Both the position numbers and the translations under genes were made by a program. Below, piece by piece: positions 2,594 to 64,000 of a DNA stretch of 64,000 nt. The DNA is from Candidatus Wirthbacteria bacterium (lineage in GTDB: Bacteria > Patescibacteriota > CG2-30-54-11): assembly GCA_903889905.1 (NCBI GenBank), contig CAISZI010000058.1, forward strand, positions 6,160 through 70,159, in the 5' to 3' direction. Under the pieces are notes generated by a model. That model did not search any database. It saw only the letters and a list, made by a program, of their open reading frames with translations, and was not told where the DNA came from. Numbering within the stretch: position 1 is the stretch's first letter; each line of letters opens with the position of its first letter.

Positions 2594-2610
2594 GTTTTTG
2601 ACTCCTTTGG

Positions 2611-3897
2611 TTAGGTTATGGTTTGACTTGCCGCACTGTGACCCGCGACATAGCCGGTCGAAAACGCGGCCTGTAAATTGTAGCCACCAGTATCCCCCTG
2701 AATGTCCAGCACTTCACCGGCAAAGTATAGCCCGCTGACCAGCTTGGACTCAAGCGTTTTGGGATCCACTTCCTTGAGCTTGATGCCACCAGCCGTCACC
2801 ACCGCTTCTTCCCAGGGGCGAAGTCCAGTCAAAGTAAGAGGTAAGGCCGTAAGCAGTGTTTGCAGCTGTGTGCGCTCTGCTGCCGAAATTTGATGACCGA
2901 CTTTATCCTCGGCCATGCCACTGAGTTTGAGAAAAACAGGAATCAGGCTGCTGGGTAATAATGTTTTGAGGATATTGCCCAAATTTTTCTTGCCATTTTG
3001 GTCAAATTCACGTTGCAGCCGGTCACGTATTTGCGTCGCACTCAAGGCTGGTTTCAGATTTAATTCTGCCGTCATGCCCAGATTCCAGTGCTGAAAATCC
3101 CGATGCCCGCTGTCCCACATTTGACGTAAAATGGGTACCAGACACTGGCTCAGCTCCAACACGATCGGGCCACTAACACCAAAGTGCGTAAACAATAATT
3201 CACCAAAGGCCACAGCCAGTTGCTTACCGTTATGAAAAAGCGATAGTTCAACGTTTTTGAGCGCCAGTCCGCTGAGTTCTTTTACCCAGCTCTCACTCAC
3301 CTCAAACGGCACCAGACTCGGAACTGGCGTTACAATGACATGTTTTGCATGTCTGGCCAATTCGTAACCGCTGCCAACTGATCCTGTGAGCGGATAACTT
3401 TTGCCACCCGTAGCCACGATCACGGCATCCGCTTCGGTCAATTTGCCCGCCACCAAAACGCCTTTGCACACTCCACCCTCGATCACCAGTTGTTCCACTT
3501 TCTGGCCAAGCCGCAGCTCGACGCCGGCGGCTGTGCACATATTGAGGAGAGCATCGCGCACATCTTTGGATTTCTGGCTGGCCGGATAAAGTCGTCCGCC
3601 GCGTTCCTCGACCGTGTCAACGCCCAACGTCTTGAGCAATTTGAGCAGATCCGGGCTGAAAAACTGGTTAAAAACGCCATAAAGAAATTTTCCGCCCGCG
3701 CCAAAAGCTTTGATAAAGTCTTCACGGCTGGCGGAATTCGTTACATTGCAACGTCCACTACCGGTAATCAGCAGTTTGCGGCCAGTGTAAGTTTGGCCGT
3801 CAATACCAATGACATGGGCACCAGCTGCGGCTGCCGTGCCTGCAGCCATCAGGCCAGAAGCACCAAGACCAACAACGATAATTATTTTTTGAGGCAT
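2611..3897 (-). CDS. NAD(P)/FAD-dependent oxidoreductase, HI0933/YhiN (BaiN-like) family
   Basis: Rossmann GXGXXG at the N-terminus (IIIVVGLGASGLMAAGTAA) and TGSGRCNVTN motif characteristic of HI0933-like flavoproteins. Start trimmed to MPQKIIIVVG. Confidence 0.7.
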   Translation of the reverse strand: MPQKIIIVVGLGASGLMAAGTAAAAGAHVIGIDGQTYTGRKLLITGSGRCNVTNSASREDFIKAFGAGGKFLYGVFNQFFSPDLLKLLKTLGVDTVEERGGRLYPASQKSKDVRDALLNMCTAAGVELRLGQKVEQLVIEGGVCKGVLVAGKLTEADAVIVATGGKSYPLTGSVGSGYELARHAKHVIVTPVPSLVPFEVSESWVKELSGLALKNVELSLFHNGKQLAVAFGELLFTHFGVSGPIVLELSQCLVPILRQMWDSGHRDFQHWNLGMTAELNLKPALSATQIRDRLQREFDQNGKKNLGNILKTLLPSSLIPVFLKLSGMAEDKVGHQISAAERTQLQTLLTALPLTLTGLRPWEEAVVTAGGIKLKEVDPKTLESKLVSGLYFAGEVLDIQGDTGGYNLQAAFSTGYVAGHSAASQTIT

Positions 3898-4019
3898 GTC
3901 CAGATTGTACCGGCTTTGGGGAGGCGAGGCAATCAAAGACCACCCTCAGGTTAATTACTAAGCAGCCAACGAAACAAGCTTCAGGGGAAGCTGTTTCGTA
4001 TAGTCATTTTAAGTAGCGT

Positions 4020-4568
4020 TCACTCCCGACAGCAGTCCACGGCCTTTTTGACCACCTGGCCGAGCTTGGCAAACAGGCTGGAGCTACCTTTGTCCACCGG
4101 TTTGGCGTCTTCGGAGATGAAGTGCGCTTTGTCGTCGTCCACGTGTTTGACGTCCTCGGTTTTGACAATGCCCAGGTTAAGGCCCCAGAAAAGGCTGTAA
4201 AGGTTGTAGGCTTTTTTGAACAAATCGCGCGCGTCGGCTTCACTGCCTTTGCCCAGCATTTTGGTGCCGACTTCCATCAAGCGCATCGAGCTGGCGAGCA
4301 GGTGCTTGGAAATACACCAGACTTCGCCCTCGTAGTCCTTGATAATGCGCTTCAGGAGCGATTTGCGCATATCGCGCACTTCTTTGAGCACTTCATAGTA
4401 AGCGGGATTGCCCGTTTTTTCGGCGCTGAAAAACAGGTGTTCTTCGATACTGATCAGGTTCATGATACCAATCGAAAGGTCCTCATCGGAACTCAAATCG
4501 AGCTTTTCGCCTTTTTCCATCTTTTTGACTTTATCCAAAAAAGCCTGAACGTCCTTGTCTTCAGCCAT
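4020..4568 (-). CDS. Hypothetical cytoplasmic protein
   Basis: 182-aa ORF with coding-like composition. No recognisable motif. Confidence 0.4.
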   Translation of the reverse strand: MAEDKDVQAFLDKVKKMEKGEKLDLSSDEDLSIGIMNLISIEEHLFFSAEKTGNPAYYEVLKEVRDMRKSLLKRIIKDYEGEVWCISKHLLASSMRLMEVGTKMLGKGSEADARDLFKKAYNLYSLFWGLNLGIVKTEDVKHVDDDKAHFISEDAKPVDKGSSSLFAKLGQVVKKAVDCCRE

Positions 4569-5134: not shown

Positions 5135-5190
5135 AGGAGAGGGGGGAAAGAGAACTCACCCTACCCTCTCTTAGGTAAAGAGAGGGTTTA
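5135..5190. repeat. GC-rich palindromic repeat (AGGAGAGGG...CCCTCTCTTaggtaaAGAGAGGG) upstream of DUF559 gene
   Basis: The hairpin ccctctctt/agagaggg is seen directly. The aggagagggggg core is homologous to aggagagggcagggtgaggta found at 61821 and 62276. Confidence 0.5.
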
Positions 5191-5266
5191 GAACAAACAA
5201 CCCTGATTAACACACCTTTGGTTTGATATACTTCAAAAAATTTCCAAACACTATTACAATTGAAGC

Positions 5267-5647
5267 ATGACGATTCTTCATAATAAACTTTCATTCAAAG
5301 AACGGCGACGTGAGCTGCGTCATAATCAAACTGACGCTGAGAATGTTTTATGGCAACGAATACGGGGACGCCAAATTCTTAACTTCAAATTCTACCGCCA
5401 ATTTAGCGTCGGCGCATATATCATGGATTTCTATGCCCCACAAGCTAAACTTGGCATTGAACTTGACGGAGGACAGCACGCAGAGGCAAATCAAGAAGAA
5501 TACGATCAAATTCGAACAGATTATTTAACTTCTATTGGAATCCGAATCCTGAGATTTTGGAATTACGAGGTGATGAACGACTTGGTTACTGTAACAGAAA
5601 CAATTAACAACCATTTGTCGAATCTAATCCTACCCCCTTCCCTTTAA
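5267..5647 (+). CDS. DUF559 endonuclease-domain protein (Vsr-like)
   Basis: ENVLWQRIRGRQILNFKFYRQFSVGAYIMDFYAPQAKLGIELDGGQHAE...RILRFWNYEV is the DUF559 signature. About 55% identical to the paralog at 61852-62244. Confidence 0.65.
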   Translation: MTILHNKLSFKERRRELRHNQTDAENVLWQRIRGRQILNFKFYRQFSVGAYIMDFYAPQAKLGIELDGGQHAEANQEEYDQIRTDYLTSIGIRILRFWNYEVMNDLVTVTETINNHLSNLILPPSL

Positions 5648-5668
5648 TAAAGGGAAGGGCTGGGGATG
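5629..5668. repeat. Palindromic repeat cccttcccttt-aataa-agggaaggg overlapping the 3' end of the DUF559 gene
   Basis: Perfect 10-bp stem seen directly. Same CTTCCCTT...AAGGGAAG motif family as at 8872-8893 and 60406-60470. Confidence 0.5.
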
Positions 5669-5675
5669 AGTTCTC

Positions 5676-8804: not shown

Positions 8805-8900
8805 TAACCCCTCTTAATCTCCCCTTACATTAAGGGGAGATATCGGATTCTCCATTTACCATTTTCATGTACCTTCCCTTAAAGTAAGGGAAGGCTAGGA
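8805..8900. repeat. Intergenic palindromic repeat pair (tctccccttacattaaggggaga; ccttcccttaaagtaagggaagg)
   Basis: Hairpins at 8818-8840 and 8872-8893. Near-identical hairpin tctccccttaaagtaaggggaga at 60448-60470. Confidence 0.55.
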
Positions 8901-10145
8901 AGGGTTATCTTTCCCCCTCATCACAAAAAACTTGTCCCCCGCCCTCACCTGAGCATCCACCTTGAACGTGACTTTACTCCCTTGTTTCGCCACTTCCAGG
9001 ACAGTTTGTTCATCTTTCATCTCCTTCAACACTCCCCGCACCAGTCCCGTCGTTTTGCCCGTAATCAGAAATTCCTCGCCGGTCTTGATCTCCGTCTTGG
9101 CCAACACTTCCACATACGCCACATGCGCGCGGGGGTAGTAATTGAGCACATTGCCAATCAGCACCTTGGTTTTGGTTGCCTGGCTGTCATCGAAGCGTGC
9201 CCACTCGTCCCATTTTCGGCCCAGGTAAAAACCCTGCGAAAAGCTGCGGTTAAACACGGTTTTGAGCCGTTTATTCCAGTCATCGACTTTGTCGGCGGTA
9301 AATTTACCATTTTGAGCTGCGCTGATTGCTTCGCGGTAGCACCGGATCACCGTGTCCACATATTCTGGCGGCCGGCCGCGACCTTCGATTTTGAGCGAGG
9401 CGATGCCGGCTGCCACTAGCTGTGGAATCAGTCCAATTGTGCACAAATCCGCGGGACTCATGACATAATTCCCGTCGACAACCAGTTCTCGGTTGGTTTC
9501 CAAATCCGTTACCTTGTACGGACGCCGACATATCTGCGTACAACGACCACGATTAGCCGAACTATTGTATTCAAACAAGCTCATGTCACACCGGCCGCTC
9601 ACCGCCACGCAAAGTGCGCCATGGGCAAAAACTTCCACCCTTACCAATTCCCCACTTGGTCCCACGATATTGTCCAAACGCACCCGATCGATGATTTCCC
9701 TGATCTGTTCAAGTGTCAGTTCACGCGCCAGCACCACACAGTCGGCAAATTGCGCATAAAATTTCAAACTTTCAAAATTCGAAATCGACAGCTGCGTCGA
9801 GATATGCACTTCCACGCCAATGCTGCGTGCATACAAGATCGCCGCCATGTCCGACGCTATGATCGCGTCCGCCGCGCTCGCTTTGACCAGGTCGATAATC
9901 TCTTGCATTTGCGCCAGTTCCTGGTTGTAGATGATCGTGTTGACGGTGACGTATACGCGCAGCTTGTGCTCATGGATAAGCGCGACCACTTCCTGGAGTT
10001 CTTCCTTTTGGAAATTGACCGCTGCCGTGGCCCGCATGTTGAAGTTGGCAATACCCAGATAGACCGCATCTGCACCCGCCGCGATCGCTGCCCGCAAGGC
10101 TTCCCACGACCCGGCTGGAGATAACAATTCAATTTGACGCATCAC
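8895..10145 (-). CDS. Peptidase U32 family (collagenase-like; YhbU/PrtC)
   Basis: Conserved U32 motifs (AGADAVYLG, cysteine-containing E..HGALCVA.SGRC) and full-length similarity pattern. 416 aa. Confidence 0.8.
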   Translation of the reverse strand: MMRQIELLSPAGSWEALRAAIAAGADAVYLGIANFNMRATAAVNFQKEELQEVVALIHEHKLRVYVTVNTIIYNQELAQMQEIIDLVKASAADAIIASDMAAILYARSIGVEVHISTQLSISNFESLKFYAQFADCVVLARELTLEQIREIIDRVRLDNIVGPSGELVRVEVFAHGALCVAVSGRCDMSLFEYNSSANRGRCTQICRRPYKVTDLETNRELVVDGNYVMSPADLCTIGLIPQLVAAGIASLKIEGRGRPPEYVDTVIRCYREAISAAQNGKFTADKVDDWNKRLKTVFNRSFSQGFYLGRKWDEWARFDDSQATKTKVLIGNVLNYYPRAHVAYVEVLAKTEIKTGEEFLITGKTTGLVRGVLKEMKDEQTVLEVAKQGSKVTFKVDAQVRAGDKFFVMRGKDNPS

Positions 10146-56677: not shown

Positions 56678-57976
56678 TTACGGTAGATACAACATCGGAT
56701 CAACCAGCGTATAACTGCTGGCTGTCACTTCACGAATCTCAAAATGCAAGTGCGGTCCGGTACAGAAGCCGGAACAACCCATCAGTCCGATTTGCTGCCC
56801 CTGCGCCACATGCTGCCCCATGCTGACACTGATTTCACTCATATGCCCATAAACCGTGACCGCGCCGTCGCCATGGTCGATCATGGCCATGTTGCCATAG
56901 CTGTATTTGCCATAATGCTGGATATTGACCACCGTGCCGGATTTTGGCGCCAGAATCGGAGTGCCGATGCTATTGGCAATATCAATACCAGTATGATAGC
57001 GGTTGTTACCAATTTTCAAAAAAGGATAGGCATTGATCATCCAGTCGGGATAGCTTTGCCAGAAACGCATGGTGATTGTGCCTTTGGTGGGCCAGATGTA
57101 GCCTTTGCGACTGGGGGTGACAGAAGTTGAGGGTGTTTTGCCTGCAGCAATCTGGGCTTGTCGGGCAGCTTCCTGTTTGGCACGGATATCAGCGGCAATT
57201 TTGTCCATGGTGGCATTGATCTGGGCCTGGTCGGATTGCTCGGCCTGAAGGTTGTCCTGCAGCAAGGATTGGTATTTATTTTCCAGTCCCTGAGTTTCGG
57301 CCAGCATGCTTTGTTTGGTGTTTTTCTGGAATTGCAGCTGGAATTCTTTTTGCTGGATATCGGCCTGTAGTTGTTCGACGTTCTTTTTCTTGTCTTCGAG
57401 GGCGGTTTTCTGGTCAAGCAATGTCTGCTTCAGTGTCTGGATGCTGGTCAGGATTTCCTGGTTCTGGTCGTCCACAATCTGGTTGTATTCCAGACGTTTA
57501 ACCATGTCTGACATGCTCTGTGTCTCGGCAATGACGTCAAAGAAACTGGTCTGGCTCATGATATAGGATTCGTTGATGTTGTCTTTGAACATCAGCACCT
57601 GTGCATCGAGTTTGGTCTGGGTGTCGGCAATCTGTTTGGTGACGTCAGCGATGTCGCTATTGACCTGGTCGAGTTGAACCTGCGCCAGATTCATTTCCTG
57701 CTGCGTGTCCGTCATTTCGGCATCGAGCAGATTGGCCTGGTCCTTAAGCGTCTTGGCCTGTGACTGCAACTGCTTGATTTTGAGCTTTTGGTCAGCAATC
57801 TGACTTTGCAGCAGCAGGATTTCTTTTTTCTTGTTGTTGATCGTCTGGTTACTGTTGATCGCATCCGTGATCTCATCCGCCTTGGCCGGACCCAAATTGG
57901 TCATCAAAGCGGTGGCAATGATGACGAGTCCCAGCAGACGCAAAAAGCTGAATTTGATTTTAGGTTTACGGATCAA
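56678..57976 (-). CDS. M23 family peptidoglycan endopeptidase with long N-terminal coiled-coil (EnvC-like)
   Basis: Signal/TM, about 250 aa heptad-like Q/L/K-rich coiled coil, C-terminal M23 domain (HTGIDIA...HGDGAVTVYGH...GCSGFCTGPHLHFEI). Confidence 0.8.
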   Translation of the reverse strand: MIRKPKIKFSFLRLLGLVIIATALMTNLGPAKADEITDAINSNQTINNKKKEILLLQSQIADQKLKIKQLQSQAKTLKDQANLLDAEMTDTQQEMNLAQVQLDQVNSDIADVTKQIADTQTKLDAQVLMFKDNINESYIMSQTSFFDVIAETQSMSDMVKRLEYNQIVDDQNQEILTSIQTLKQTLLDQKTALEDKKKNVEQLQADIQQKEFQLQFQKNTKQSMLAETQGLENKYQSLLQDNLQAEQSDQAQINATMDKIAADIRAKQEAARQAQIAAGKTPSTSVTPSRKGYIWPTKGTITMRFWQSYPDWMINAYPFLKIGNNRYHTGIDIANSIGTPILAPKSGTVVNIQHYGKYSYGNMAMIDHGDGAVTVYGHMSEISVSMGQHVAQGQQIGLMGCSGFCTGPHLHFEIREVTASSYTLVDPMLYLP

Positions 57977-58026: not shown

Positions 58027-58917
58027 CTACTTGCCGATGTGCTGGCGGATCGCCACCCAGGCACTGACGGCGCCCAGCGCGGCACCCAGTACGATTTGAT
58101 ACAATCCGGACCGGATCGCCGCAAACAGACCGAAGTCGGGTTTGGGAATTTTAAAGAGGTAGCTCAAATCGATCAGTTGCGTGGAAAAATGGGCAAAGAC
58201 AAAGTAAAGCACCACGGTGGACAAAATCGCCGCAATGGCGCCATCATAAACCGCTTCGATGATAAACGGCCCGCGCACAAACCAGTCTGTGGCCCCTACC
58301 AGCTGCATAATTTCAATTTCATGCCGGCGCGTATAAATCGCCAGCCGCACGGTGTTGAGCACGACCAGAAACGCGATGATGGCGAGGAAAACCAGCAGTG
58401 TCATGCCCACTTGTTGCAGCAGTTGTGTGCCGCGATTAATCGCATCCACGGTTTGTTTGGAGTATTTTATTTTCTTCACCAGCGGATTGTTTTCCACCGA
58501 ATGGGCGACGCTGTCGAGTGAGGCTGGCGTGCTGGTTTTGATATCCAGACTGGCACTAAAGGGGTTGCCGTAATCCTGCAACGTGGCTTTGGTGCCAGGC
58601 TTTTGCTGGTCGTAGATCTCAAGCGCCTGTTCCTTGGACGTGTAGGCCGTGTCTTTGACCAGAGCATTGTGCGTCAACGTATCGCGAAATTGCAGAATCT
58701 GGTCTTCGGGCGCGTCGGATTTGAAGAAGATGGTGAAATCCACTTTGTCGCCAATTGATTGGATGGCGCTATTAAAACTGGTCCCAAAGATGATAAACAC
58801 GTTCATCGTCAAAAAAACCAGAAACATGACCGAAATGGCCGTAATCGTCAGCCATCCGTTGCGCCACATGCTGGTGAGTGACATTTTGAGTACCCGCCAC
58901 AGACTCGTCCAAAGCAT
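58027..58917 (-). CDS. ftsX: Cell division permease-like protein FtsX
   Basis: One N-terminal TM, periplasmic domain, three C-terminal TMs. Immediately downstream of ftsE. Start choice (MLWTSLWRVLK) is uncertain by about 10 codons. Confidence 0.8.
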   Translation of the reverse strand: MLWTSLWRVLKMSLTSMWRNGWLTITAISVMFLVFLTMNVFIIFGTSFNSAIQSIGDKVDFTIFFKSDAPEDQILQFRDTLTHNALVKDTAYTSKEQALEIYDQQKPGTKATLQDYGNPFSASLDIKTSTPASLDSVAHSVENNPLVKKIKYSKQTVDAINRGTQLLQQVGMTLLVFLAIIAFLVVLNTVRLAIYTRRHEIEIMQLVGATDWFVRGPFIIEAVYDGAIAAILSTVVLYFVFAHFSTQLIDLSYLFKIPKPDFGLFAAIRSGLYQIVLGAALGAVSAWVAIRQHIGK

Positions 58918-59083
58918 AGTATTCCTCAAGTGAATTGCAATTAGGTTGTCATGCTGAACGGAGAGAAGCATCCTTACTACTACCCACACAAACCTGTTAA
59001 CCCACCAACCATTTCATCTGTAGTAAGGATTCTTCGGCTTCTGCCTCAGAATGACGGATCGGGCGATGCGTCAGTCGCCCCTA

Positions 59084-59761
59084 CTAACTGATATATCTCC
59101 CCGCATACTGATCCCGCACGACAATGCCATTCTCCAATGCCACCACGCGGCGGCGGATGGCGTTGACGATATTCTGATCGTGGGTCGCCATGATCACCGT
59201 CGTGCCAAAGTTATTGATGCGTTGCAGCAATTGAATAATTTCCCAGCCGGTATAGCTGTCCAGATTTCCAGTGGGTTCATCAGCGAGCAAAATTTTGGGC
59301 TGGTGCACCAGGGCACGGGCAATGGCGACACGCTGTTGTTCGCCACCCGAAAGCTCGTTGGGGAAATGGTTGGCTTTGTCCTCGAGTCCCACCAGTGCCA
59401 GCACTTTGGGCACGATATCCTTGATCTGTCTGTAACTGCGGCCCGACACCTCCAGCGCAAAAGCGACATTTTCAAAGGCGTTTTTGTTGCGCAGCAGTTT
59501 GAAGTCCTGAAACACCGTACCGATTTTGCGCCGGTACTGCGCGACACGACCACGGGGAATGTATTCAATGTCCTCGCCGTCGACAAACACTTTGCCAATG
59601 TTACATTTTTCTTCTTTGATCAAGAGGCGCATCAACGATGATTTGCCGACACCGCTCGGCCCGATCAGCGAGACAAAGTCCCCCGCCGCAATGTTGAGAT
59701 TGATGTTGCGCAGGACGAATTTGTTGCCGTATTTCTTGCTCACGCCTTGGATCAGGATCAT
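59084..59761 (-). CDS. ftsE: Cell division ABC ATPase FtsE
   Basis: Walker [11 protein letters not shown]-loop, ABC signature [15 protein letters not shown], Walker [11 protein letters not shown]-loop. 225 aa. Confidence 0.9.
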
Positions 59762-59799
59762 GATTTTTTGTTTGATAGTCTAAACGTATGACTATTATA

Positions 59800-60020
59800 C
59801 ACGGCGTTTTTGGGTTGGCAAGGAGGGGAGAGTACCTCCCACCTTCGCATGGCTTCGGTGGGCAGGCCCCAACCCCACCTAAATTAGGTGGGGTAAGAGT
59901 TCTCCTTCCTTTTCCCTCCTAAGTCAAGCGCTTCGTCGTCCCTTGGGGACTGGAGTCTGCGACGTGCTGTGCATAGGAGGGAATAAAAAGGGAGGTATTT
60001 CCCCTCTTATTCCCAACTCT
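59800..60020. repeat. Cluster of GC-rich palindromic repeats (ccccacctaaattaggtgggg; ccctcctaagtcaagcgcttcg...tgcataggaggg; gggaataa...ttattccc)
   Basis: Hairpins seen directly. The 59913-60014 unit recurs at 62309-62384 (with a 28-bp indel). ctggagtctgcgacgt at 59951-59966 recurs at 61784-61799. Confidence 0.55.
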
Positions 60021-60399
60021 TCCTCGATAATCACAATAATACTTGCAATTATCTAAAATTATGCTATATTATATTTACAAATACATCAACTAAGCACATT
60101 AATATCATCAATATCGTCAATTTTCCTCCCCTCAGGCCCAAAGCCGTCGGGGAGGGTTACCAAAAACAATCCCGGGTACTCAGAAGAGGCCCTGATGATC
60201 TGATTGTTGGGTCAACTCTTGCCATCATCGCCGGTGCCTCGCATCGGCCCAGGTGGTGCATGCCTCCTCCGCCTCCCCGCCCGAATGCCGGGCGCTCAGG
60301 CCACCGGATGCTTGCCTCCGCCCCAAGTGCTGGCAAGTAAAACCCAACAACCAGAGAGAGCAAAAGCAAATCTGGTTAATTCGAAGATTCGTAACCCTT

Positions 60400-60550
60400 C
60401 CTAACCTTCCCTTACCCTAAGGGCAGGCATAAGAAGTTCCCATCCCCTCTCCCCTTAAAGTAAGGGGAGATAAAGAGGGGTTATTCCCCATCCCCCCGGT
60501 CCCGACCGCAGAACACCGCCAACACTGACCTGTTGTTGGTGCTCTGCGGT
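60400..60550. repeat. Palindromic repeats (ccttcccttaccctaagggcagg; tctccccttaaagtaaggggaga; gaccgcagaacacc...ggtgctctgcggtc)
   Basis: 60448-60470 is near-identical to 8818-8840. A 14-bp inverted repeat lies at 60498-60549. Confidence 0.5.
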
Positions 60551-60551
60551 C

Positions 60552-60602
60552 AAACATTTCGCACTCGTTGGCATGTGCCAACTTGTGTAACAGAAATGTT
60601 TA
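60552..60602. promoter_or_regulatory. Nested palindrome upstream of the ORF at 60622: aaacatttc...TTGGCATGTGCCAA...gaaatgttt (candidate operator)
   Basis: Perfect 14-bp palindrome at 60568-60581 inside a 9-bp inverted repeat (60552-60560 and 60594-60602). gaggagg RBS follows at 60608-60614. Confidence 0.35.
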
Positions 60603-60621
60603 GGCCGAGGAGGTTTTAATC

Positions 60622-61614
60622 ATGTCTAAAATGTACTCTCCCAGTTCTATGATCGTTCGGCATTCTTCCTTCCCGCATCGGCGGGACACTCGAAATGCAT
60701 TGGCAGCCGCACAGGCAGCCGCGAAAGCGGCACGGGCCGCTCAGCGAGCCGCTGAACGAGCTGAGCGGGCAGCGATGGCCGGGAAAAATGCCGTAAACAG
60801 CCTACGCCCGAGCGTAATCGGGACGGAAATCAATCAGACAATCATCAGCCTCAAATTCGAGGCTGAAGAAAATCTGAACATCGCGATCCTCTTTGCAGAG
60901 GAACGCGATGCCGCCCGAGAAGCTCTCGAGGCCGAGAAGGCGATGACAGCAGCTCTCAAGGCTGCCCCGCCACCGGCTGATCCGGCATTCGTTGATACTC
61001 CCCCCGCGGCCATGGAGCCCATCTCCTCCCCGAGCCAGTTGCAAATATGGAGATTCCGCGCTCAGGGCATTTTCCTCGCCCTAGTGGCCGTGTTGCTGGC
61101 GTTGCTCATTCTCGCCCTCTTGGGCGCAAGAATCTGTAGCCCATCATGGGTTACAGCGCCGGGATTCATCATCCCGACGGCAACGGTTGCGCCAGCAGCC
61201 CAACCGACCAACGGCACCCCCGCCGTTGGGTCGAGTGCAGCGAACTCGCTGCACATACTTATCACCTCGACCACACAAATCTCGCCGTCAGTCCCCACGA
61301 CGGTTTCAGTGACCACGGTCGTCTCTCAGACGGCCGCCCCCACGGTCACCGCGGCGTCCACCTCTACGGACGCCACAAATTATTTCACGATTACTCTCGG
61401 CAGTTTCACTAGTGCTGGTCAACTGGCAGTTCACTACTGCCCGTACCTGATCAACGCTAGTGTTTCGATTACTCGCTCAGTCTTCGGTCTTACAGGGACC
61501 TTGACTGACGATCAGTCGGTAGCCGGTTTAATCATGCGGGCCAACCCCAAATTCCCCTGGGGTAAGGGGCTTTCGACCGACGCACTCAACATCCCCGTTG
61601 AGTGCAGTTGGTGA
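60622..61614 (+). CDS. Hypothetical Ala-rich/Thr-rich single-pass membrane protein
   Basis: Strong RBS. N-terminal A/R/E-rich helical segment (AAAQAAAKAARAAQRAAERAERAA), one TM (IFLALVAVLLALLILALLGA), Thr/Ser/Val-rich C-terminal region. GC noticeably higher than surrounding genes. Confidence 0.45.
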   Translation: MSKMYSPSSMIVRHSSFPHRRDTRNALAAAQAAAKAARAAQRAAERAERAAMAGKNAVNSLRPSVIGTEINQTIISLKFEAEENLNIAILFAEERDAAREALEAEKAMTAALKAAPPPADPAFVDTPPAAMEPISSPSQLQIWRFRAQGIFLALVAVLLALLILALLGARICSPSWVTAPGFIIPTATVAPAAQPTNGTPAVGSSAANSLHILITSTTQISPSVPTTVSVTTVVSQTAAPTVTAASTSTDATNYFTITLGSFTSAGQLAVHYCPYLINASVSITRSVFGLTGTLTDDQSVAGLIMRANPKFPWGKGLSTDALNIPVECSW

Positions 61615-61619
61615 AAACC

Positions 61620-61850
61620 GTAGAACAACCAGATTGAGCTCCCCGCTCTCTCTGGTTGTTCTACCTTGTGCCCTTGAGCTTTGGCTCGAGGGTAGAAGGA
61701 AGAGTACCGCCTCCTACCTCCTCCTACTCTAGGAGGAGGTAAGACAATGATTTCTCCAAAGCAATTCTTACCCTCTCCTAATGCTGGAGTCTGCGACGTC
61801 CCAACGTCCGCAGTTGGGATAGGAGAGGGCAGGGTGAGGTATAATTCAGC
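61620..61850. repeat. Palindromic repeat cluster upstream of second DUF559 gene (tagaacaacca...tggttgttcta; cctcctac...taggagg; aggagagggcagggtgaggta)
   Basis: 11-bp-stem hairpin at 61624-61667. The 21-mer aggagagggcagggtgaggta at 61821-61841 is repeated at 62276-62296 flanking the DUF559 CDS. Confidence 0.5.
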
Positions 61851-61851
61851 C

Positions 61852-62244
61852 ATGTCCTACCTCTACAACAAACCCCCATTACAACCCAATCGTACGTCCC
61901 TGCGTCAAAACTCAACTGATGCCGAGAACGCTTTGTGGTATCACTTACGTAACAAACAGTTTCTTGGCCTTAAATTTCGCAGACAATACAGCGTCGATGC
62001 CTATGTGCTGGATTTCTATTGTCCATCGCTCCGCCTCGCCATCGAACTGGATGGCGGGCAACATGCGGAAGCCGATCAAATGGATTATGACCAAATTCGC
62101 ACTGAATTCCTTGCATCACAAGATATTCATGTGATCAGATTTTGGAATAATGATGCATTACAGAATATGGATGGTCTTTTGGAAAGACTGCAAATTGAAA
62201 TTGATAGACTAAGAGTACCACCCCCTAACCCCCGCCTACTCTAG
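61852..62244 (+). CDS. DUF559 endonuclease-domain protein (Vsr-like), second copy
   Basis: ENALWYHLRNKQFLGLKFRRQYSVDAYVLDFYCPSLRLAIELDGGQHAE...HVIRFWNND matches the copy at 5267-5647. Start chosen at MSYLYN. The ORF-track N-terminal extension reads through repeats. Confidence 0.6.
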   Translation: MSYLYNKPPLQPNRTSLRQNSTDAENALWYHLRNKQFLGLKFRRQYSVDAYVLDFYCPSLRLAIELDGGQHAEADQMDYDQIRTEFLASQDIHVIRFWNNDALQNMDGLLERLQIEIDRLRVPPPNPRLL

Positions 62245-62390
62245 GCGGGGGCAAGCTCTTACCCTCTCCTAGAGTAGGAGAGGGCAGGGTGAGGTACTCT
62301 GCTCATTTTCCCTCCTAAATCAAGCGCTTCGCAGTGCTGTGCATAGGAGGGAAATAGGGAGGTATTCCCCTCCCTATTTCCCGCTCAGCA
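62215..62390. repeat. Palindromic repeat cluster downstream of the second DUF559 gene (cccccgcctactctaggcggggg; ccctctcctagagtaggagaggg; 76-bp unit shared with 59913-60014)
   Basis: Hairpins and shared units seen directly in sequence. Confidence 0.55.
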
Positions 62391-63375
62391 TATTCATCAC
62401 CACCTTGACCAAAACGTCTTTTTGACTGGGTTTACTCTCGGCTATGAGCAGCGCCAACGCGACGAGGGCATTGTCATTGATGCGTTTCTCGCCATCACGA
62501 CGGTAAAGCTTGCGATTCTGCGCGAGCAGCACGATGAACAGGAACGATGCAATCCGCTTGTTGCCATCCACAAAGGGGTGGTCTTTGATGATGAAGTACA
62601 GTAAGTGCGCCGCTTTTTCCTCCAGCGTGGCATACAGCTCGTCGCCACCAAAGGTTTGATAAAGCGTACCCATCACCGCCTCAAACTGGTGGTTACGTTC
62701 CTGGCCAAACAGTTCTCCGGCTTCCTGTTTCCTGACCAGTTCCTGCTTGAGCTGATCCACCGCACGCAGGGCATAAGGGTAATCCAGCTTGCGGCGCATT
62801 TTGGTACCTGCCACCTCATCCAGGCGCTCTTCATCATACTTTTGCAACAATACCCAGGTATTGGCATAAGTGGTGATCACCTCCAGCAAACCCGTGGTCT
62901 CGCCACTGCTGAGCTGTTTGGCGTGGACCACCTGCTTGATCAGCCCAACTGCCTGTTCAAATTCGGCCAGACCTGTTTCGTCAAGCCGCTTTGGCCTAAT
63001 CGTAAAGCCCTTAAGGAGATGGTCGCGCAAGACAGACGTTGCCCAGATGCGGAATTGGGTCCCACGCAATGATTTAACCCGATAACCGACTGAAATGATG
63101 ACATCGAGATTGTAAAAATCCATCTGATAAGTCTTGCCGTCCGCTGCAGTTGTTGCAAAATTTGCAACAACTGCTTCCCGACTCAGCTCCCCATCACGAA
63201 ACACGTTATGGATATGCCTGGAAACAACCGAATTGTCACGATCAAACAACGCGGATAGCTGATCCAAACTCAGCCAGACGGTCTCGTCCTGTAATTTCAC
63301 TTCCAACGACGCTTTGCCATCTTTGGCTTGATAAATCACGATCTCGCCAGTTTTAGCTGCCGTCATTTTGTTCAT
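62374..63375 (-). CDS. RhuM-like N-terminal domain fused to Fic/Doc domain protein
   Basis: N-terminus IVIYQAKDGKASLEVKLQDETVWLSLDQLSALFDRDNSVVSRHIHNV is a RhuM-family hallmark. C-terminal HPFVDGNKRIASFL is the Fic motif HPFx[DE]GNKR. Confidence 0.7.
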   Translation of the reverse strand: MNKMTAAKTGEIVIYQAKDGKASLEVKLQDETVWLSLDQLSALFDRDNSVVSRHIHNVFRDGELSREAVVANFATTAADGKTYQMDFYNLDVIISVGYRVKSLRGTQFRIWATSVLRDHLLKGFTIRPKRLDETGLAEFEQAVGLIKQVVHAKQLSSGETTGLLEVITTYANTWVLLQKYDEERLDEVAGTKMRRKLDYPYALRAVDQLKQELVRKQEAGELFGQERNHQFEAVMGTLYQTFGGDELYATLEEKAAHLLYFIIKDHPFVDGNKRIASFLFIVLLAQNRKLYRRDGEKRINDNALVALALLIAESKPSQKDVLVKVVMNMLSGK

Positions 63376-63428
63376 AATTTGACTTTCTGACTTAAAAATA
63401 CAAAATAGCTTCCTCCCCTTTAGTTCCC

Positions 63429-63692
63429 CTACATCCCCGCATACACATCTTTGCGATGCCCAATCTTGACTGCCAACACCACGACTTCAAGTTCAATTAT
63501 CTGATAAATAATCCGATATCTTCCCTGCCTTAGTCGCCGCAATCCTTTGAACTGCCCTTTGAGTTGCTCACCCTGATGCGGGTCGCGACCAAGTTCCTGG
63601 TCGATCACATCGAGTAATAGCCGCTGCGTTTCCTTGGGCAGCTTACGCAAATCCTTGGCAACCGACCGCTTAAATTGAATACTATAGACCAA
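63429..63692 (-). CDS. Type II toxin-antitoxin system RelE/ParE-family toxin
   Basis: 87 aa. Ends ...RRLRQGRYRIIYQI..EVVVLAVKIGHRKDVY, typical of RelE/ParE toxins. 11-bp overlap with the upstream antitoxin. Confidence 0.75.
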   Translation of the reverse strand: MVYSIQFKRSVAKDLRKLPKETQRLLLDVIDQELGRDPHQGEQLKGQFKGLRRLRQGRYRIIYQIIELEVVVLAVKIGHRKDVYAGM

Positions 63693-63903
63693 GACTCGTC
63701 CTCAGCTGGGCCGATGAAATCGTCTTGTCTTTGGCATCATTGGCGCGTGTAAGTGCTTCCACCAAATCCTCCTGATCCTGCAAATATGACACCACAGCTT
63801 GCGAAAGCAGCCACGACCTTGGCCGGTCGGCTTCAGCGGCAAGCAAATCAATCTGCTTTACCAAGTCTGCTTCCAAAGTAATAGAAATAGCTGATTTGGC
63901 CAT
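63682..63903 (-). CDS. Ribbon-helix-helix (CopG/ParD-like) antitoxin
   Basis: 73 aa. N-terminal beta-strand ISITLEADLVKQID followed by helices. Overlaps the toxin gene. Confidence 0.6.
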   Translation of the reverse strand: MAKSAISITLEADLVKQIDLLAAEADRPRSWLLSQAVVSYLQDQEDLVEALTRANDAKDKTISSAQLRTSLGL

Positions 63904-63934
63904 CACTGCCTCGGCTAATATTTATATGATAAAT

Positions 63935-63952
63935 AGTATAGAAAGTATAGAA
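63935..63952. promoter_or_regulatory. Tandem 9-bp direct repeat agtatagaa-agtatagaa in the TA promoter region (candidate RHH operator)
   Basis: Perfect tandem repeat about 30 bp upstream of the antitoxin start in an AT-rich region. Confidence 0.3.
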
Positions 63953-64000
63953 TGGAAACAAAATAAATACAAGAGAACTCCCCCCTCCTACGCTCGGAAG

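What the first reader, a model, noticed from the sequence alone, without database searches (positions are those of the whole stretch)
59762..63960. Accessory island at the window's 3' end: repeats, Ala/Thr-rich membrane protein, DUF559, RhuM-Fic, RelE/RHH toxin-antitoxin
After the ftsE start, composition and content change. There is an 860-bp non-coding stretch with at least five distinct hairpin repeats and an AT-rich segment (60010-60120). A higher-GC ORF follows, encoding an Ala-rich helix plus TM plus Thr-rich tail protein preceded by a nested-palindrome operator. Then come a DUF559 cassette, a RhuM-Fic fusion (HPFVDGNKR) and an overlapping RHH-antitoxin/RelE-toxin pair with a tandem-repeat operator. 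This is typical of a mobile or defence island and probably extends beyond 64000.
Basis: partly seen in the sequence, partly recalled or inferred. Interest (0 to 1): 0.55.

Follow-up and report, generated by a model that had tools for sequence, protein, structure and literature searches.

The report
Nuclease gene framed by triplex-motif repeats
The end of this window is a repeat-rich accessory stretch with toxin-type genes, and its small DUF559 nuclease gene sits between inverted copies of a long-known but unexplained bacterial repeat (BoxC / triplex motif), a pairing that recurs across many bacteria and may identify the repeat's missing partner protein.

Summary
These are an 860-bp hairpin-rich gap, a 330-aa membrane ORF, DUF559, RhuM-Fic and an overlapping RHH/RelE pair. 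The Fic motif is Doc-type, and the whole protein matches the PADLOC defence candidate PDC-S23. The 330-aa protein is an ORFan.

"Accessory" is supported. In the closest available genome (FtsE 74% identical), prfB abuts ftsE where this segment lies. "Mobile island" is unproven: the window holds no integrase or flanking tRNA, and its far border is not visible.

Most hairpins belong to one known class, the BoxC / PIT / TM(ECO) intrastrand-triplex-motif repeats, whose function is unknown. They also occur at 5.1-5.7 kb and 8.8 kb, so they are not specific to this segment.

Both DUF559 genes of the window lie between inverted copies of these repeats, with the repeat tails facing the gene. The same unit appears in about 70% of 80 unrelated metagenomic DUF559 loci, against 1-4% for other genes of those loci. 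It also appears at E. coli ycjD and in a cyanobacterial plasmid. Flanking copies within one locus resemble each other like terminal inverted repeats.

I found no paper reporting this link. My best reading is a Vsr/EDxHD-type nuclease paired with its repeat, working like RAYT-REPIN or a homing cassette.

The parts
59084..59761 (-). ftsE, the last core gene. It marks the left border of the variable segment.
   Evidence: Pfam ABC_tran E 2e-34. ftsX and an M23 peptidase follow, as in L003.
59794..59821 (-). Promoter-like site for ftsE (TTGCCA-16-TATAAT, 11 of 12 positions).
59826..60019 (.). Cluster of pyrimidine-first hairpins: 59826-59868, 59872-59894, and repeat X1 at 59904-60019. X1 ends in a purine-first palindrome.
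   Evidence: X1 z -3.5. X1 is a copy of X2 (62300-62386) with about 26 extra nt in its loop.
60010..60120 (+). AT-rich segment (GC 0.26) with promoter-like sites that read rightward.
60199..60355 (+). Long extended hairpin. It may be a structured RNA or leader; its function is unknown.
   Evidence: RNA fold of 60150-60395: + strand z -4.67 (0 of 200 shuffles), - strand z -1.84. No Rfam match.
60392..60483 (.). Doublet of triplex-motif (TM/BoxC-type) repeats with tails pointing outward.
   Evidence: TM scan. Copies of the 8806-8906 doublet at 94-96% over 24-36 nt. Fold z -2.8.
60504..60600 (.). Two adjacent strong palindromes just upstream of orf330. They may be an operator, a terminator or a repeat.
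   Evidence: z -6.8.
60622..61614 (+). orf330, an ORFan single-pass membrane protein with an Ala-rich helical N-terminal part, a transmembrane helix, and a Thr/Ser/Pro-rich C-terminal part.
   Evidence: No Pfam, NCBIfam or PADLOC match. Only itself was found among 5.8e9 proteins.
61620..61664 (.). 20-bp hairpin after orf330. Its 3' arm is a perfect inverted copy of 60346-60361.
   Evidence: I6, I8
61700..61841 (.). TM repeat doublet A1 (61700-61744, tail then hairpin) and B1 (61766-61841, hairpin then tail). B1 carries a 39-nt insertion in its loop, and its tail supplies the Shine-Dalgarno of DUF559.
   Evidence: z -4.6.
61852..62244 (+). DUF559 (Vsr/EDxHD-like nuclease fold) gene, 130 aa. Its last residues and its stop codon are encoded by repeat A2.
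   Evidence: PF04480 E 2e-34. AlphaFold model pLDDT 87.5. Best structural matches are 3HRL and the I-Bth0305I catalytic domain. GC 0.448 against 0.513 for core genes.
62211..62300 (.). TM repeat doublet A2 (62211-62255) and B2 (62257-62300). Together with A1/B1 it forms a direct repeat of the doublet around the gene. B1 and A2 are inverted copies with their tails facing the gene.
   Evidence: D1, D2, D6, D8, I1, I3; z -6.0.
62300..62386 (.). Repeat X2: a hairpin plus a 14-bp perfect purine-first palindrome. It overlaps the 3' end of the RhuM-Doc gene.
   Evidence: D3-D5, I13; z -5.4.
62374..63375 (-). RhuM N-terminal domain fused to a Doc-type Fic domain (HPFVDGNKR). It is a member of PADLOC defence-candidate family PDC-S23.
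   Evidence: PF13310 E 6.5e-23 and PF02661 E 6.9e-12. TIGR01550 39.6 bits against a cut-off of 38.65. PDC-S23 E 7e-129 over the full length.
63429..63692 (-). RelE/ParE-superfamily toxin.
   Evidence: PF05016 E 2.8e-11 and TIGR02385 E 8.5e-11.
63682..63906 (-). RHH (CopG/RelB-like) antitoxin, overlapping the toxin gene by 11 nt.
   Evidence: PF01402 E 1.2e-7 and NF048017 E 2.5e-9, the latter below its cut-off.
63935..63952 (.). Two tandem 9-mers (AGTATAGAA) in the antitoxin promoter region. They are a likely operator.
   Evidence: Read directly from the sequence. The operator role is inferred.
5153..5671 (+). Second DUF559 unit, outside the finding's coordinates. The gene is 5267-5647 (126 aa, 48% identical to the first, GC 0.404). 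TM repeats lie at 5153-5187 and 5625-5671, and the stop codon sits in a hairpin loop.
8806..8906 (.). Solo TM repeat doublet between two core genes, with no DUF559 gene nearby.
   Evidence: z -4.2.

Best explanation
The last 4.2 kb of the window is a repeat-rich, lineage-variable accessory segment. It lies where related genomes have prfB next to ftsE. I do not think it is an integrase-type island. It contains an ORFan membrane protein, a RhuM-Doc single-gene defence candidate (PDC-S23) and a RelE/RHH toxin-antitoxin pair.

Its hairpins are BoxC / PIT / TM-type repeats. Each has a pyrimidine arm, a loop and a purine arm, followed by a second purine 'tail' that mirrors the purine arm. That is the layout of a class II intrastrand triplex motif.

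The DUF559 gene is part of a conserved unit of roughly 430-500 bp: [hairpin-tail] - DUF559 - [tail-hairpin]. The two flanking repeats act as terminal inverted repeats, the upstream tail provides the ribosome-binding site, and the downstream repeat encodes the C-terminus and often the stop codon.

I infer that DUF559, a small nuclease with a Vsr / EDxHD homing-endonuclease-like fold, recognises and nicks these structured repeats. That would drive gene conversion, homing or rearrangement at repeat sites. It would maintain both its own cassette and the dispersed solo or doublet repeats, as a RAYT does for REP/REPIN elements, and it would make the surrounding DNA unstable. Addiction and defence genes then accumulate in such spots.

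What is shown: the anatomy, the statistical association, the orientation rule, the within-locus similarity of the flanking repeats, and the nuclease fold. What is inferred: binding and cleavage of the repeats by DUF559, and any mobility.
For: Synteny breaks exactly at the ftsE start when compared with L003.

Repeat class: the window elements fit the Y-R-H triplex layout. This matches the BoxC/PIT/TM(ECO) repeats described in PMC4666352. That paper reports unknown function, no pattern in flanking genes, and association with genomic instability.

Both DUF559 genes of the window are flanked by these repeats.

In 80 metagenomic DUF559 loci at 41-55% identity, a pyrimidine-first hairpin lies within 80 nt upstream of the ATG in 44 of 63 and over the stop region in 51 of 73. 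For other ORFs of at least 150 aa in the same loci the figures are 1 of 80 and 3 of 79.

Tails face the gene: 28 against 6 upstream, and 32 against 2 downstream. A tail fits its own stem better than permuted tails do (0.814 against 0.677, maximum of 200 permutations 0.708).

Upstream and downstream repeats of one locus are more alike than GC-matched pairs from different loci (0.579 against 0.38; 0 of 500 permutations reach it). L117 has perfect 41-nt inverted repeats. Unit length is 430-457 bp.

The same anatomy is seen in L084 and L089, at E. coli ycjD and on Picosynechococcus pAQ6.

Many DUF559 C-termini read 'TPPNLPL..', which is the translated repeat.

Fold: 3HRL at E 1.6e-8 and the I-Bth0305I catalytic domain at E 4.5e-4.

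A contig from another sample (L083) is identical to 61835-62336 but unrelated upstream, so the breakpoint lies inside the repeat tail.

DUF559 genes are enriched among predicted inversion targets (odds ratio 14.3, PMC9881135). DUF559-bearing repeated segments are recombination hotspots in Legionella (PMC12308824).

Both DUF559 genes have atypically low GC.
Against: No cleavage, binding or transposition was tested. No target-site duplications were seen.

The two DUF559 copies of the window are only 48% identical, and the nearest foreign relatives are about 57-60% identical. There is therefore no sign of recent copying.

About 30% of DUF559 loci lack detectable repeats.

In E. coli the repeats (1-34 per genome, in all 5426 genomes) persist where ycjD is absent. 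ycjD is in 3378 of 5426 genomes, and an O157:H7 strain lacks ycjD next to fabI, while sampled O157:H7 genomes carry about 15 repeats.

Solo doublets in the window have tails outward, which is the opposite of a simple 'cassette minus gene' derivative.

For the island part, only one fairly distant relative was available for synteny, and the right border is unseen.
Confidence: 0.5

Rival explanations
1. This is a classical integrative genomic or defence island. The segment is one end of a larger mobile element whose integrase, att sites or tRNA target lie beyond 64000. On this reading the repeats and DUF559 are incidental cargo.
For: Gene content is typical of defence and addiction islands: PDC-S23, a RelE/RHH pair and a DUF559 nuclease. 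Synteny with L003 is lost at ftsE. Some genes have deviant composition. The source contig is 82.7 kb, so about 19 kb lies unseen beyond the window.
Against: No integrase, recombinase or flanking tRNA lies in 59.7-64 kb. No long direct repeats bound the segment. The RhuM-Doc gene has host-like GC and codon use. The same repeats and a second DUF559 unit lie among core genes at 5-9 kb.
Confidence: 0.2
2. The flanking repeats are cis-acting expression elements of the DUF559 gene and not substrates for mobility. The upstream hairpin and tail would control translation (the tail holds the Shine-Dalgarno), and the downstream hairpin would stabilise or terminate the mRNA. DUF559 might bind them as RNA, as the related RAP/FASTK domains bind RNA. 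Solo repeats elsewhere would be unrelated uses of the same structure.
For: The upstream tail overlaps or abuts the start codon (GGGGGAGTTATG in many loci). The stop codon often lies in or beside the hairpin. The model matches RAP-domain proteins of mitoribosomes. FASTK-family Vsr-like domains act on RNA (titles and abstracts).
Against: The arrangement is symmetric like terminal inverted repeats. The downstream copy is the reverse complement, so in the mRNA it is a different sequence. Within-locus copies can be identical over 41 nt including the loop. The position of the stop codon relative to the hairpin is not fixed. The hairpins have no U-tract, and PIT elements showed no promoter or terminator activity in E. 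coli (PMC4666352). Purine-motif triplexes do not form in RNA (same paper), yet the tail co-varies with the stem.
Confidence: 0.2
3. The association is passive. TM/BoxC repeats are fragile, recombinogenic DNA, and small genes such as DUF559 simply survive or land between them. A variant of this rival is that the segment is a mis-join of a metagenome assembly at repeats.
For: TM loci are unusually rearranged among E. coli strains (PMC4666352). Short contigs from other samples end inside the repeats (L001, L002, L083).
Against: Other genes of the same loci almost never carry the repeats (1 of 80 and 3 of 79). Orientation is fixed relative to DUF559. The C-terminal 'TPPNLPL' tail is shared by distant homologues. 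L001 and L002 cover 58252-59886 with one mismatch each, and L083 covers 61835-62336 with none, so those stretches are reproduced independently.
Confidence: 0.1

Closest known systems
BoxC / PIT (potential intrastrand triplex) / TM(ECO) repeats of E. coli and other bacteria (Bergler 1992; Hoyne and Maher 2000; Holder et al. 2015, PMC4666352)
   Same: The three-block layout is the same: a C/T-rich arm, a loop, a purine arm, a 2-3 nt spacer, and a second purine block that mirrors the first. The elements are intergenic, dispersed and often in inverted pairs, and they sit in variable DNA. High-GC DUF559 loci carry the literal TM(ECO) sequence, for example CCCTCTCCCC..GGGGAGAGGGCCGGGGTGAGGGG.
   Different: The window's copies have 8-10 nt arms closed by TA or TTA (CCCTCTCCTA GAG TAGGAGAGGG CA GGGTGAGGTA), so they do not match the strict TM(ECO) pattern. 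Some carry 26-39 nt insertions in the loop. The published work reports no associated gene, whereas here they frame DUF559 genes.
REP/REPIN elements and their RAYT transposases
   Same: A usually single-copy nuclease gene is flanked by inverted copies of the same short structured repeat that is dispersed through the genome as singlets and doublets. The gene is chromosomal rather than plasmid-borne: only 35 of 72,556 plasmid records have a DUF559 hit.
   Different: The protein is a Vsr / PD-(D/E)XK-like nuclease of about 120 aa and not an HUH Y1 transposase. The repeats are triplex-type and lack the REP GTAG/CGTC tags. No activity has been shown.
EDxHD (Vsr-like) homing endonucleases such as I-Bth0305I (PMC3239194), and free-standing Vsr-like endonuclease genes in fractured genes (PMC2677866)
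   Same: The catalytic fold is shared (Foldseek E 4.5e-4, TM-score 0.79 normalised to the target; profile E 0.008). The gene is small and selfish-looking, with atypical composition.
   Different: It is not inside an intron, an intein or a split gene. It lacks the extra DNA-binding domain. It is flanked by palindromic repeats and not by exons of a host gene.
Doc toxin of the Phd-Doc system, Fic family, and PADLOC candidate PDC-S23
   Same: The Doc-type motif HxFxDGNKR is present. TIGR01550 scores just above its cut-off, and the PDC-S23 profile matches over the full length.
   Different: No separate Phd antitoxin is present; a RhuM-type N-terminal domain is fused instead. The defence function of PDC-S23 is only predicted.
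RelBE/ParDE type II toxin-antitoxin modules
   Same: An RHH antitoxin gene lies upstream of, and overlaps, a RelE/ParE-fold toxin gene. Short tandem repeats lie in the promoter region.
   Different: Nothing unusual was seen. It is an ordinary member.

Membership tests
BoxC / PIT / TM class II intrastrand triplex motif repeats | A pyrimidine arm and a purine arm form a Watson-Crick hairpin with a short loop. | tested here: met
   Perfect 9-10 bp stems at 5163, 5635, 8817, 8872, 59872, 60448, 61715, 62229 and 62262. DNA folds give z -2.8 to -6.0.
BoxC / PIT / TM class II intrastrand triplex motif repeats | A third purine-rich block lies 0-5 nt after the purine arm and is compatible with it antiparallel (G*G, A*A, T*A). 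| tested here: met
   At least 7 of 8 triads fit at 11 sites of the window. Across loci, a repeat's own tail fits better than permuted tails (0.814 against 0.677).
BoxC / PIT / TM class II intrastrand triplex motif repeats | Literal TM(ECO) pattern CCCTCNCCC N3-6 GGGNGAGGG N3 GGGNGAGGG. | tested here: not met
   The window copies are lower-GC variants, for example CCCTCTCC TAGAGTA GGAGAGGG CA GGGTGAGG. The literal pattern is present at high-GC DUF559 loci such as L135 and L163.
BoxC / PIT / TM class II intrastrand triplex motif repeats | Actual triplex formation by the single strand. | not testable with these tools
   Shown in vitro only for the E. coli sequence (PMC4666352).
DUF559 (PF04480), Vsr-like PD-(D/E)XK nuclease fold | Profile match above the curated cut-off, and the fold. 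| tested here: met
   118 bits against a cut-off of 20.6. Model pLDDT 87.5. 3HRL matches with TM-score 0.93 normalised to the target. Conserved E-x-D-G-G-Q-H...D...R and RFWN motifs.
EDxHD homing endonucleases | Vsr-like catalytic domain. | tested here: met
   3R3P matches at Foldseek E 4.5e-4 and profile E 0.008.
EDxHD homing endonucleases | The gene resides in an intron, an intein or a split gene and cleaves the empty allele. | tested here: not met
   Here it is a free-standing gene between repeats. Cleavage cannot be tested with these tools.
RAYT-REPIN system | The nuclease gene is flanked by inverted copies of the genome's dispersed repeat. | tested here: met
RAYT-REPIN system | The protein is an HUH Y1 (IS200/IS605-like) transposase. 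| tested here: not met
   Only DUF559-type nuclease matches were found. This is a resemblance in how it may work and not membership.
Insertion sequence / MITE | Terminal inverted repeats plus target-site duplication. | tested here: inconclusive
   Inverted repeats are present, up to a perfect 41 nt. No duplication was seen at six well-defined units.
Integron cassette / attC | An integron integrase nearby, and attC with RYYYAAC...GTTRRRY cores. | tested here: not met
   No integrase lies in the window (and the region scans). The TAAC/GTTA ends are arranged differently from the attC cores (reading).
Doc (Fic-fold kinase toxin) | Motif HxFx(D/N)(A/G)NKR and a match to the DOC_P1 profile. | tested here: met
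   HPFVDGNKR. TIGR01550 scores 39.6 bits against a cut-off of 38.65.
Doc (Fic-fold kinase toxin) | An adjacent Phd-type antitoxin gene. | tested here: not met
   No small upstream ORF is present. The N-terminus is a RhuM domain.
PADLOC PDC-S23 defence candidate | Full-length profile match. | tested here: met
   E 7e-129, residues 9-331 aligned to profile positions 4-324 of 327. Anti-phage activity was not tested.
Type II RelE/ParE-RHH toxin-antitoxin | Toxin fold profile, with an RHH antitoxin upstream and overlapping. | tested here: met
   PF05016, TIGR02385 and PF01402, with an 11-nt overlap.
Integrative genomic island | An integrase or recombinase, a tRNA or att boundary, and flanking direct repeats. 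| tested here: not met
   None lies in 59.7-64 kb. The tRNAs are at 19.3 and 22.6 kb. The right border is not visible.
Integrative genomic island | Absent from related genomes, with deviant composition. | tested here: inconclusive
   It is absent at the ftsE locus of L003, but that is a single relative at 74% identity. Composition deviates for orf330, DUF559 and the toxin-antitoxin pair but not for RhuM-Doc.

The most novel reading that the evidence does not exclude
DUF559 proteins (about 40,000 clusters at 50% identity) are the missing partner nucleases of the BoxC / PIT / triplex-motif repeats. These repeats have been known since 1992 and are linked to genome instability, but no function or spreading mechanism has been found. 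On this reading the [repeat]-DUF559-[repeat] unit is a new kind of nuclease-repeat symbiont. It works like RAYT-REPIN or a homing cassette but is built on a Vsr-like fold and a triplex- or hairpin-forming DNA substrate.
Probability: 0.35. Interest if true: 0.8.

Novelty: new variant of a known kind. Interest (0 to 1): 0.62.

Why it matters
As an accessory segment with a toxin-antitoxin pair and a Doc-type defence candidate, the locus is ordinary.

The wider result is the one that matters. It ties an orphan repeat class (BoxC/PIT/TM) to an orphan protein family (DUF559, which includes E. coli YcjD). The repeats are abundant in enterobacteria and cyanobacteria, are associated with rearrangements, and have had no known function for three decades.

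If the nuclease acts on the repeats, three things would follow. It would explain how the repeats spread and why their loci are unstable. It would give DUF559 a function. It would also add a second, mechanistically different example of a nuclease-repeat partnership beside RAYT/REPIN.

The idea is directly testable in E. coli K-12, using ycjD and its 23 TM(ECO) copies.

There is also a practical point for annotation. Start and stop calls of DUF559 genes, and spurious 'PSPxGEGxGVR'-type ORFs, are shaped by these repeats.

Tried and rejected
1. Rfam gave no match in the region at gathering or permissive thresholds, apart from two chance eukaryotic hits.

2. Extending the window failed. Exact-protein look-ups for RhuM-Doc, orf330, RelE and RHH (two alternative starts) were 'not on record'. 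The cluster tables show an 82,753-nt source contig in NCBI/ENA that could not be fetched.

3. The organism's taxonomy could not be named. The nearest FtsE is from an unclassified MAG (74%), followed by Patescibacteria and Streptomyces at 52-59%.

4. I considered integron cassettes and attC sites because of the direct repeat of a structured doublet around one ORF. I rejected this because there is no integrase and the core motifs differ.

5. I considered that the hairpins are intrinsic terminators. I rejected this because they have no T-runs, and the terminator scan was at chance level (4 found, 4.4 expected).

6. I sought a clean presence/absence allele of the ycjD cassette in E. coli. Instead, the fabI-sapF interval carries large alternative inserts, so no empty site was obtained.

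7. I looked for a strict dependence of TM copy number on ycjD in E. coli. It is not supported, because sampled O157:H7 genomes carry about 15 copies and one O157:H7 strain lacks ycjD next to fabI. A per-genome correlation could not be computed with the tools.

8. Plasmid carriage is rare: 35 of 72,556 records, mostly chromids or mislabelled chromosomes.

9. Searches of the paper library for DUF559, BoxC, intrastrand triplex, Vsr-like and repeat sequences found no paper that links the two.

Full report
**1. What is in the sequence**

The core operon at the end of the window is M23 peptidase (56678-57976), ftsX (58027-58989) and ftsE (59084-59761), all on the minus strand. A strong promoter-like site for ftsE lies at 59821..59794.

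From 59762 to 60621 there is no supported ORF. The stretch holds at least eight hairpins. Those I folded are far more stable than shuffled sequence. It also holds a 110-bp segment of 26% GC.

The genes that follow are these:
- orf330 (60622-61614, +)
- a DUF559 gene (most likely start 61852, end 62244, +)
- a RhuM-N-terminus/Fic-fold protein (62374-63375, -)
- a RelE/ParE toxin (63429-63692, -)
- an RHH antitoxin (63682-63906, -), overlapping the toxin by 11 nt and preceded by two tandem AGTATAGAA 9-mers

All of these are confirmed by Pfam and NCBIfam.

Two refinements apply. The Fic motif HPFVDGNKR is the Doc (kinase-type) variant, and the protein passes the DOC_P1 model. The whole 333-aa protein is a full-length member of the PADLOC defence-candidate family PDC-S23, at E 7e-129.

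orf330 has a Shine-Dalgarno sequence, one clear transmembrane helix and an Ala-rich N-terminal part. It has no relative at all among 5.8 billion proteins.

**2. Is it an island?**

The source contig is 82.7 kb, but DNA beyond 64000 could not be obtained.

The closest genome in the species-level collection is an unclassified MAG with FtsE 74% identical. There, ftsE is preceded at 30 nt by prfB, then murJ and rpsT, and on the other side ftsX and the M23 peptidase follow as in the window. None of prfB, murJ or rpsT is in the window. Synteny therefore ends exactly at the ftsE start.

Composition is mixed. Values below are GC with z-scores against 40 core ORFs (core GC 0.513 +/- 0.021).

| Gene | GC | GC z | Codon-score z |
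|---|---|---|---|
| orf330 | 0.584 | +3.4 | -4.0 |
| DUF559 at 61852 | 0.448 | -3.1 | -3.5 |
| DUF559 at 5267 | 0.404 | -5.1 | -6.5 |
| RhuM-Doc | 0.508 | -0.2 | -0.8 |
| RelE | 0.485 | -1.3 | -4.9 |
| RHH | 0.498 | -0.7 | -3.2 |

The z-scores of the short genes are inflated, because they are measured against the spread of longer genes.

No integrase, recombinase or adjacent tRNA is present. I conclude that 'accessory, variable segment' is supported and that 'mobile or defence island' is only partly supported.

**3. What the hairpins are**

Most of them share one layout. A C/T-rich arm, a 3-5 nt loop and the complementary purine arm are followed, after 2-3 nt, by a second purine block (the 'tail') that mirrors the purine arm. 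An example is CCCTCTCC-TAGAGTA-GGAGAGGG-CA-GGGTGAGG at 62262-62295.

In the opposite orientation the complementary C-rich tail comes first, as in TACCACCCCCT-AA-CCCCCGCCTA-CTC-TAGGCGGGGG at 62217-62251.

A scan for this three-block pattern finds 11 hits in the window:
- 5153-5187
- 5625-5671 (two overlapping hits)
- 8806-8841 and 8871-8906
- 60393-60427
- 60437-60482 (two overlapping hits)
- 61706-61739
- 62217-62251 and 62261-62295

One further copy, B1 at 61771-61841, has a loop that carries a 39-nt insertion. The copies at 60392-60483 are 94-96% identical over 24-36 nt to those at 8805-8907.

The repeats are therefore genome-dispersed. They are about twenty times denser in the last 4.2 kb than in the rest of the window, but they are not private to it.

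A sequence-word search of the literature led to Holder et al. 2015 (PMC4666352). This is the BoxC repeat of E. coli, rediscovered as PIT (potential intrastrand triplex) elements and called TM(ECO) in that paper. Its pattern is CCCTCNCCC N3-6 GGGNGAGGG N3 GGGNGAGGG. There are 23 copies in K-12 and 3610 in 262 proteobacterial genomes, and related GC-rich motifs are abundant in cyanobacteria. No promoter or terminator activity was found, and no pattern was found in the flanking genes. The loci are more rearranged between strains than control loci.

The window's copies are lower-GC variants of this class. They do not match the literal TM(ECO) pattern.

**4. The DUF559 gene and the repeats form one unit**

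At 61852-62244 the gene is preceded by B1, a hairpin followed by a tail. The tail GGGTGAGGTA lies 10 nt before the ATG.

The gene runs into A2, a tail followed by a hairpin. The last residues, RVPPPNPRLL, and the stop codon are encoded by that repeat.

A further A1 lies upstream and a further B2 downstream. The doublet A-B is therefore directly repeated around the gene.

The second DUF559 gene (5267-5647) is only 48% identical to the first. It is also flanked, and its stop codon lies in a hairpin loop.

Two unrelated metagenome contigs with homologues at 53-57% identity show the same picture:
- L089: CCTCCCCTTGAGGTAAGGGGAGG-AT-GGAGGAGTT-ATG ... GTAACTCCTCC-TG-CCTCCTCTTACTCTAAGAGGAGG
- L084: several repeats on each side

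In an alignment of 31 family members, most C-termini read 'TPPNLPL..KGE', which is the translated repeat.

**5. Statistics of the association**

I fetched 80 DUF559 loci from metagenomes by protein pattern alone. They are 41-55% identical to the query and range from low to high GC.

| Test | DUF559 genes | Control |
|---|---|---|
| Pyrimidine-first hairpin within 80 nt upstream of the ATG | 44 of 63 | 1 of 80 other ORFs of at least 150 aa in the same loci |
| Such a hairpin over the stop region | 51 of 73 | 3 of 79 other ORFs |
| Hairpin clusters in the rest of the loci | - | 0.29 per kb |

- **Orientation is fixed.** The tail lies on the gene side in 28 against 6 upstream elements, and in 32 against 2 downstream elements.
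- **The tail co-varies with its own stem.** Triplex compatibility is 0.814 against 0.677 for permuted tails, and none of 200 permutations exceeds 0.708.
- **The two flanking repeats of one locus resemble each other.** Similarity is 0.579 against 0.38 for GC-matched repeats of other loci, and 0 of 500 permutations reach it. L117 has perfect 41-nt terminal inverted repeats that include the loop.
- **The unit is compact.** It measures 430-457 bp from outer hairpin to outer hairpin. I saw no target-site duplication.
- **A negative set behaves as expected.** In 1.5 Mb of genome loci without DUF559 genes, the only three-block hits were a few conserved coding sites of Streptomyces.

**6. Named organisms**

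- **E. coli K-12.** ycjD is the DUF559 gene next to fabI (envM); by my recollection, not checked with the tools, this is the locus where BoxC was first noticed. It ends in ..SPSP-stop over a degenerate hairpin (CCCTCTCCC TGAAAGAGC GAGGGGG). It has a pyrimidine-first palindrome before its ATG. TM(ECO) copy no. 9 lies 168 nt downstream, after a duplicated fragment of the ycjD 3' end.
- **E. coli population.** ycjD is single-copy and present in 3378 of 5426 complete genomes. The repeat is in all genomes at 1-34 places, median 19. An O157:H7 strain lacks ycjD next to fabI, and sampled O157:H7 genomes have about 15 repeats. The repeats therefore do not strictly need the gene to persist.
- **Picosynechococcus PCC 7002.** The DUF559 gene on plasmid pAQ6 is flanked on both sides by short CCCCC-N5-GGGGG-N3-GGGGG motifs.
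- **Neisseria gonorrhoeae.** This homologue is the protein of PDB entry 3HRL. It has a degenerate copy of the repeat upstream.
- **Plasmids in general.** DUF559 is rare on plasmids.

**7. The protein**

The AlphaFold model has mean pLDDT 87.5. It matches 3HRL at E 1.6e-8, then the catalytic domain of the EDxHD homing endonuclease I-Bth0305I at E 4.5e-4. After these come RAP-domain proteins of mitoribosomes, PvuRts1I/AbaSI, Vsr, an R2 retrotransposon endonuclease and TnsA. The profile also reaches 3R3P by sequence, at E 0.008.

Invariant residues form E-x-D-G-G-Q-H ... D ... R ... RFWN, which is consistent with an intact active site.

The family is very large: 40,347 clusters at 50% identity with E of at most 1e-3.

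**8. How it most likely works**

Shown:
- a conserved unit of [hairpin-tail] - nuclease gene - [tail-hairpin]
- flanking repeats that behave as terminal inverted repeats
- dispersed solo and doublet copies of the same repeat
- a homing-endonuclease-like nuclease fold
- atypical gene composition

Supporting observations:
- A contig from another sample is identical to 61835-62336 and unrelated to the left of it, so the breakpoint falls inside the tail of B1.
- DUF559 genes are enriched among predicted inversion targets (odds ratio 14.3, PMC9881135).
- DUF559-bearing repeated segments are recombination hotspots in Legionella experimental evolution (PMC12308824).
- TM loci are unstable in E. coli (PMC4666352).

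Inferred: the nuclease recognises the structured repeat and nicks it. Repair would then copy or rearrange repeat-flanked DNA. This would maintain the cassette and seed solo repeats, as RAYTs do for REPINs or homing endonucleases do for their genes.

The symmetric arrangement and the tail-stem co-variation point to a DNA-level role and away from an RNA-level one. Both are features of the purine-motif triplex, which per PMC4666352 does not form in RNA.

Against recent mobility:
- the two copies of the window are only 48% identical
- no target-site duplications were seen
- about 30% of loci have no detectable repeat
- repeats persist in ycjD-negative E. coli

A domesticated, mostly vertically inherited partnership fits these facts better than an active transposon does.

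**9. Novelty**

The toxin-antitoxin pair, the Doc-type PDC-S23 protein and the accessory-segment idea are ordinary. The repeat class and the protein family are both known.

I found no paper in the 8-million-paper library that links them. The key paper on the repeats contains neither 'DUF559' nor 'endonuclease', and it states that no pattern was found in flanking genes.

I cannot exclude a report outside this library. I rate the finding a new variant of a known kind, namely a nuclease-repeat partnership or homing-like cassette.

Noticed in passing
window 60150-60395 (+): A hairpin of about 150 nt (60199-60355) lies downstream of promoter-like sites at 60030-60072. Folded as RNA, the + strand gives z -4.67 (0 of 200 shuffles) and the - strand only z -1.84. 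There is no Rfam match. It could be a small RNA, a long leader of orf330 or a MITE-like palindrome.
   Followed up: partly
window 60346-60361 and 61645-61660: A perfect 16-nt inverted repeat (AACAACCAGAGAGAGC) brackets orf330 and its upstream region. About 0.002 such repeats are expected by chance in 4.3 kb. The right copy is one arm of the hairpin at 61620-61664.
   Followed up: no
window 59950-59965 and 61784-61799: The same 16-mer, CTGGAGTCTGCGACGT, sits in the enlarged loops of two different hairpin repeats. X1 differs from X2 by about 26 nt, and B1 from B2 by 39 nt. This suggests a tiny element nested in hairpin loops, or loop-targeted insertion or deletion.
   Followed up: partly
L083 (534-nt contig from another sample) against window 61803-62336: It is identical to the window from 61835 to 62336 (0 mismatches) and unrelated in the 32 nt before that. 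The alternative junction falls inside the purine tail of repeat B1. It could be a second genomic context, a strain variant or an assembly break.
   Followed up: partly
window 61747-61851: The longest ORF of the DUF559 gene starts at 61747 and reads through repeat B1, adding 35 residues that are translated repeat. Gene callers may over-extend DUF559 N-termini in this way. Many long 'fusion' proteins with an internal DUF559 domain appear among the family representatives.
   Followed up: no
window 63975-64000: The last bases, GAACTCCCCCCTCCTACGCTCGG, look like the start of another C-rich tail plus hairpin. The repeat-rich DNA therefore continues past the window end.
   Followed up: no
L171 (E. 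coli K-12 1349500-1352500), locus positions about 1740-1900: Downstream of ycjD lies a duplicated, diverged fragment of the ycjD 3' end (ATGGAGACGGTGCTGGAGAATATTCGGCAAGG...), followed by a full BoxC/TM(ECO) copy. It looks like the relic of a second cassette end. In about 38% of E. coli genomes the fabI-sapF interval lacks ycjD, and at least some of them (O157:H7) carry a different insert there with a TetR regulator, an RND pump fragment and IS elements.
   Followed up: partly
L003 (closest genome contig), 2227-4029: prfB ends 30 nt before ftsE in the relative, so ftsE there probably lacks its own promoter. In the window, ftsE has acquired a near-consensus promoter within the first 60 nt of the variable segment.
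   Followed up: no
E. coli genome collection: The copy number of the BoxC/TM 46-mer looks bimodal among sampled genomes: 2-7 copies in about a fifth of them, and 14-30 in the rest. Whether this tracks phylogroup or ycjD presence was not determined.
   Followed up: no
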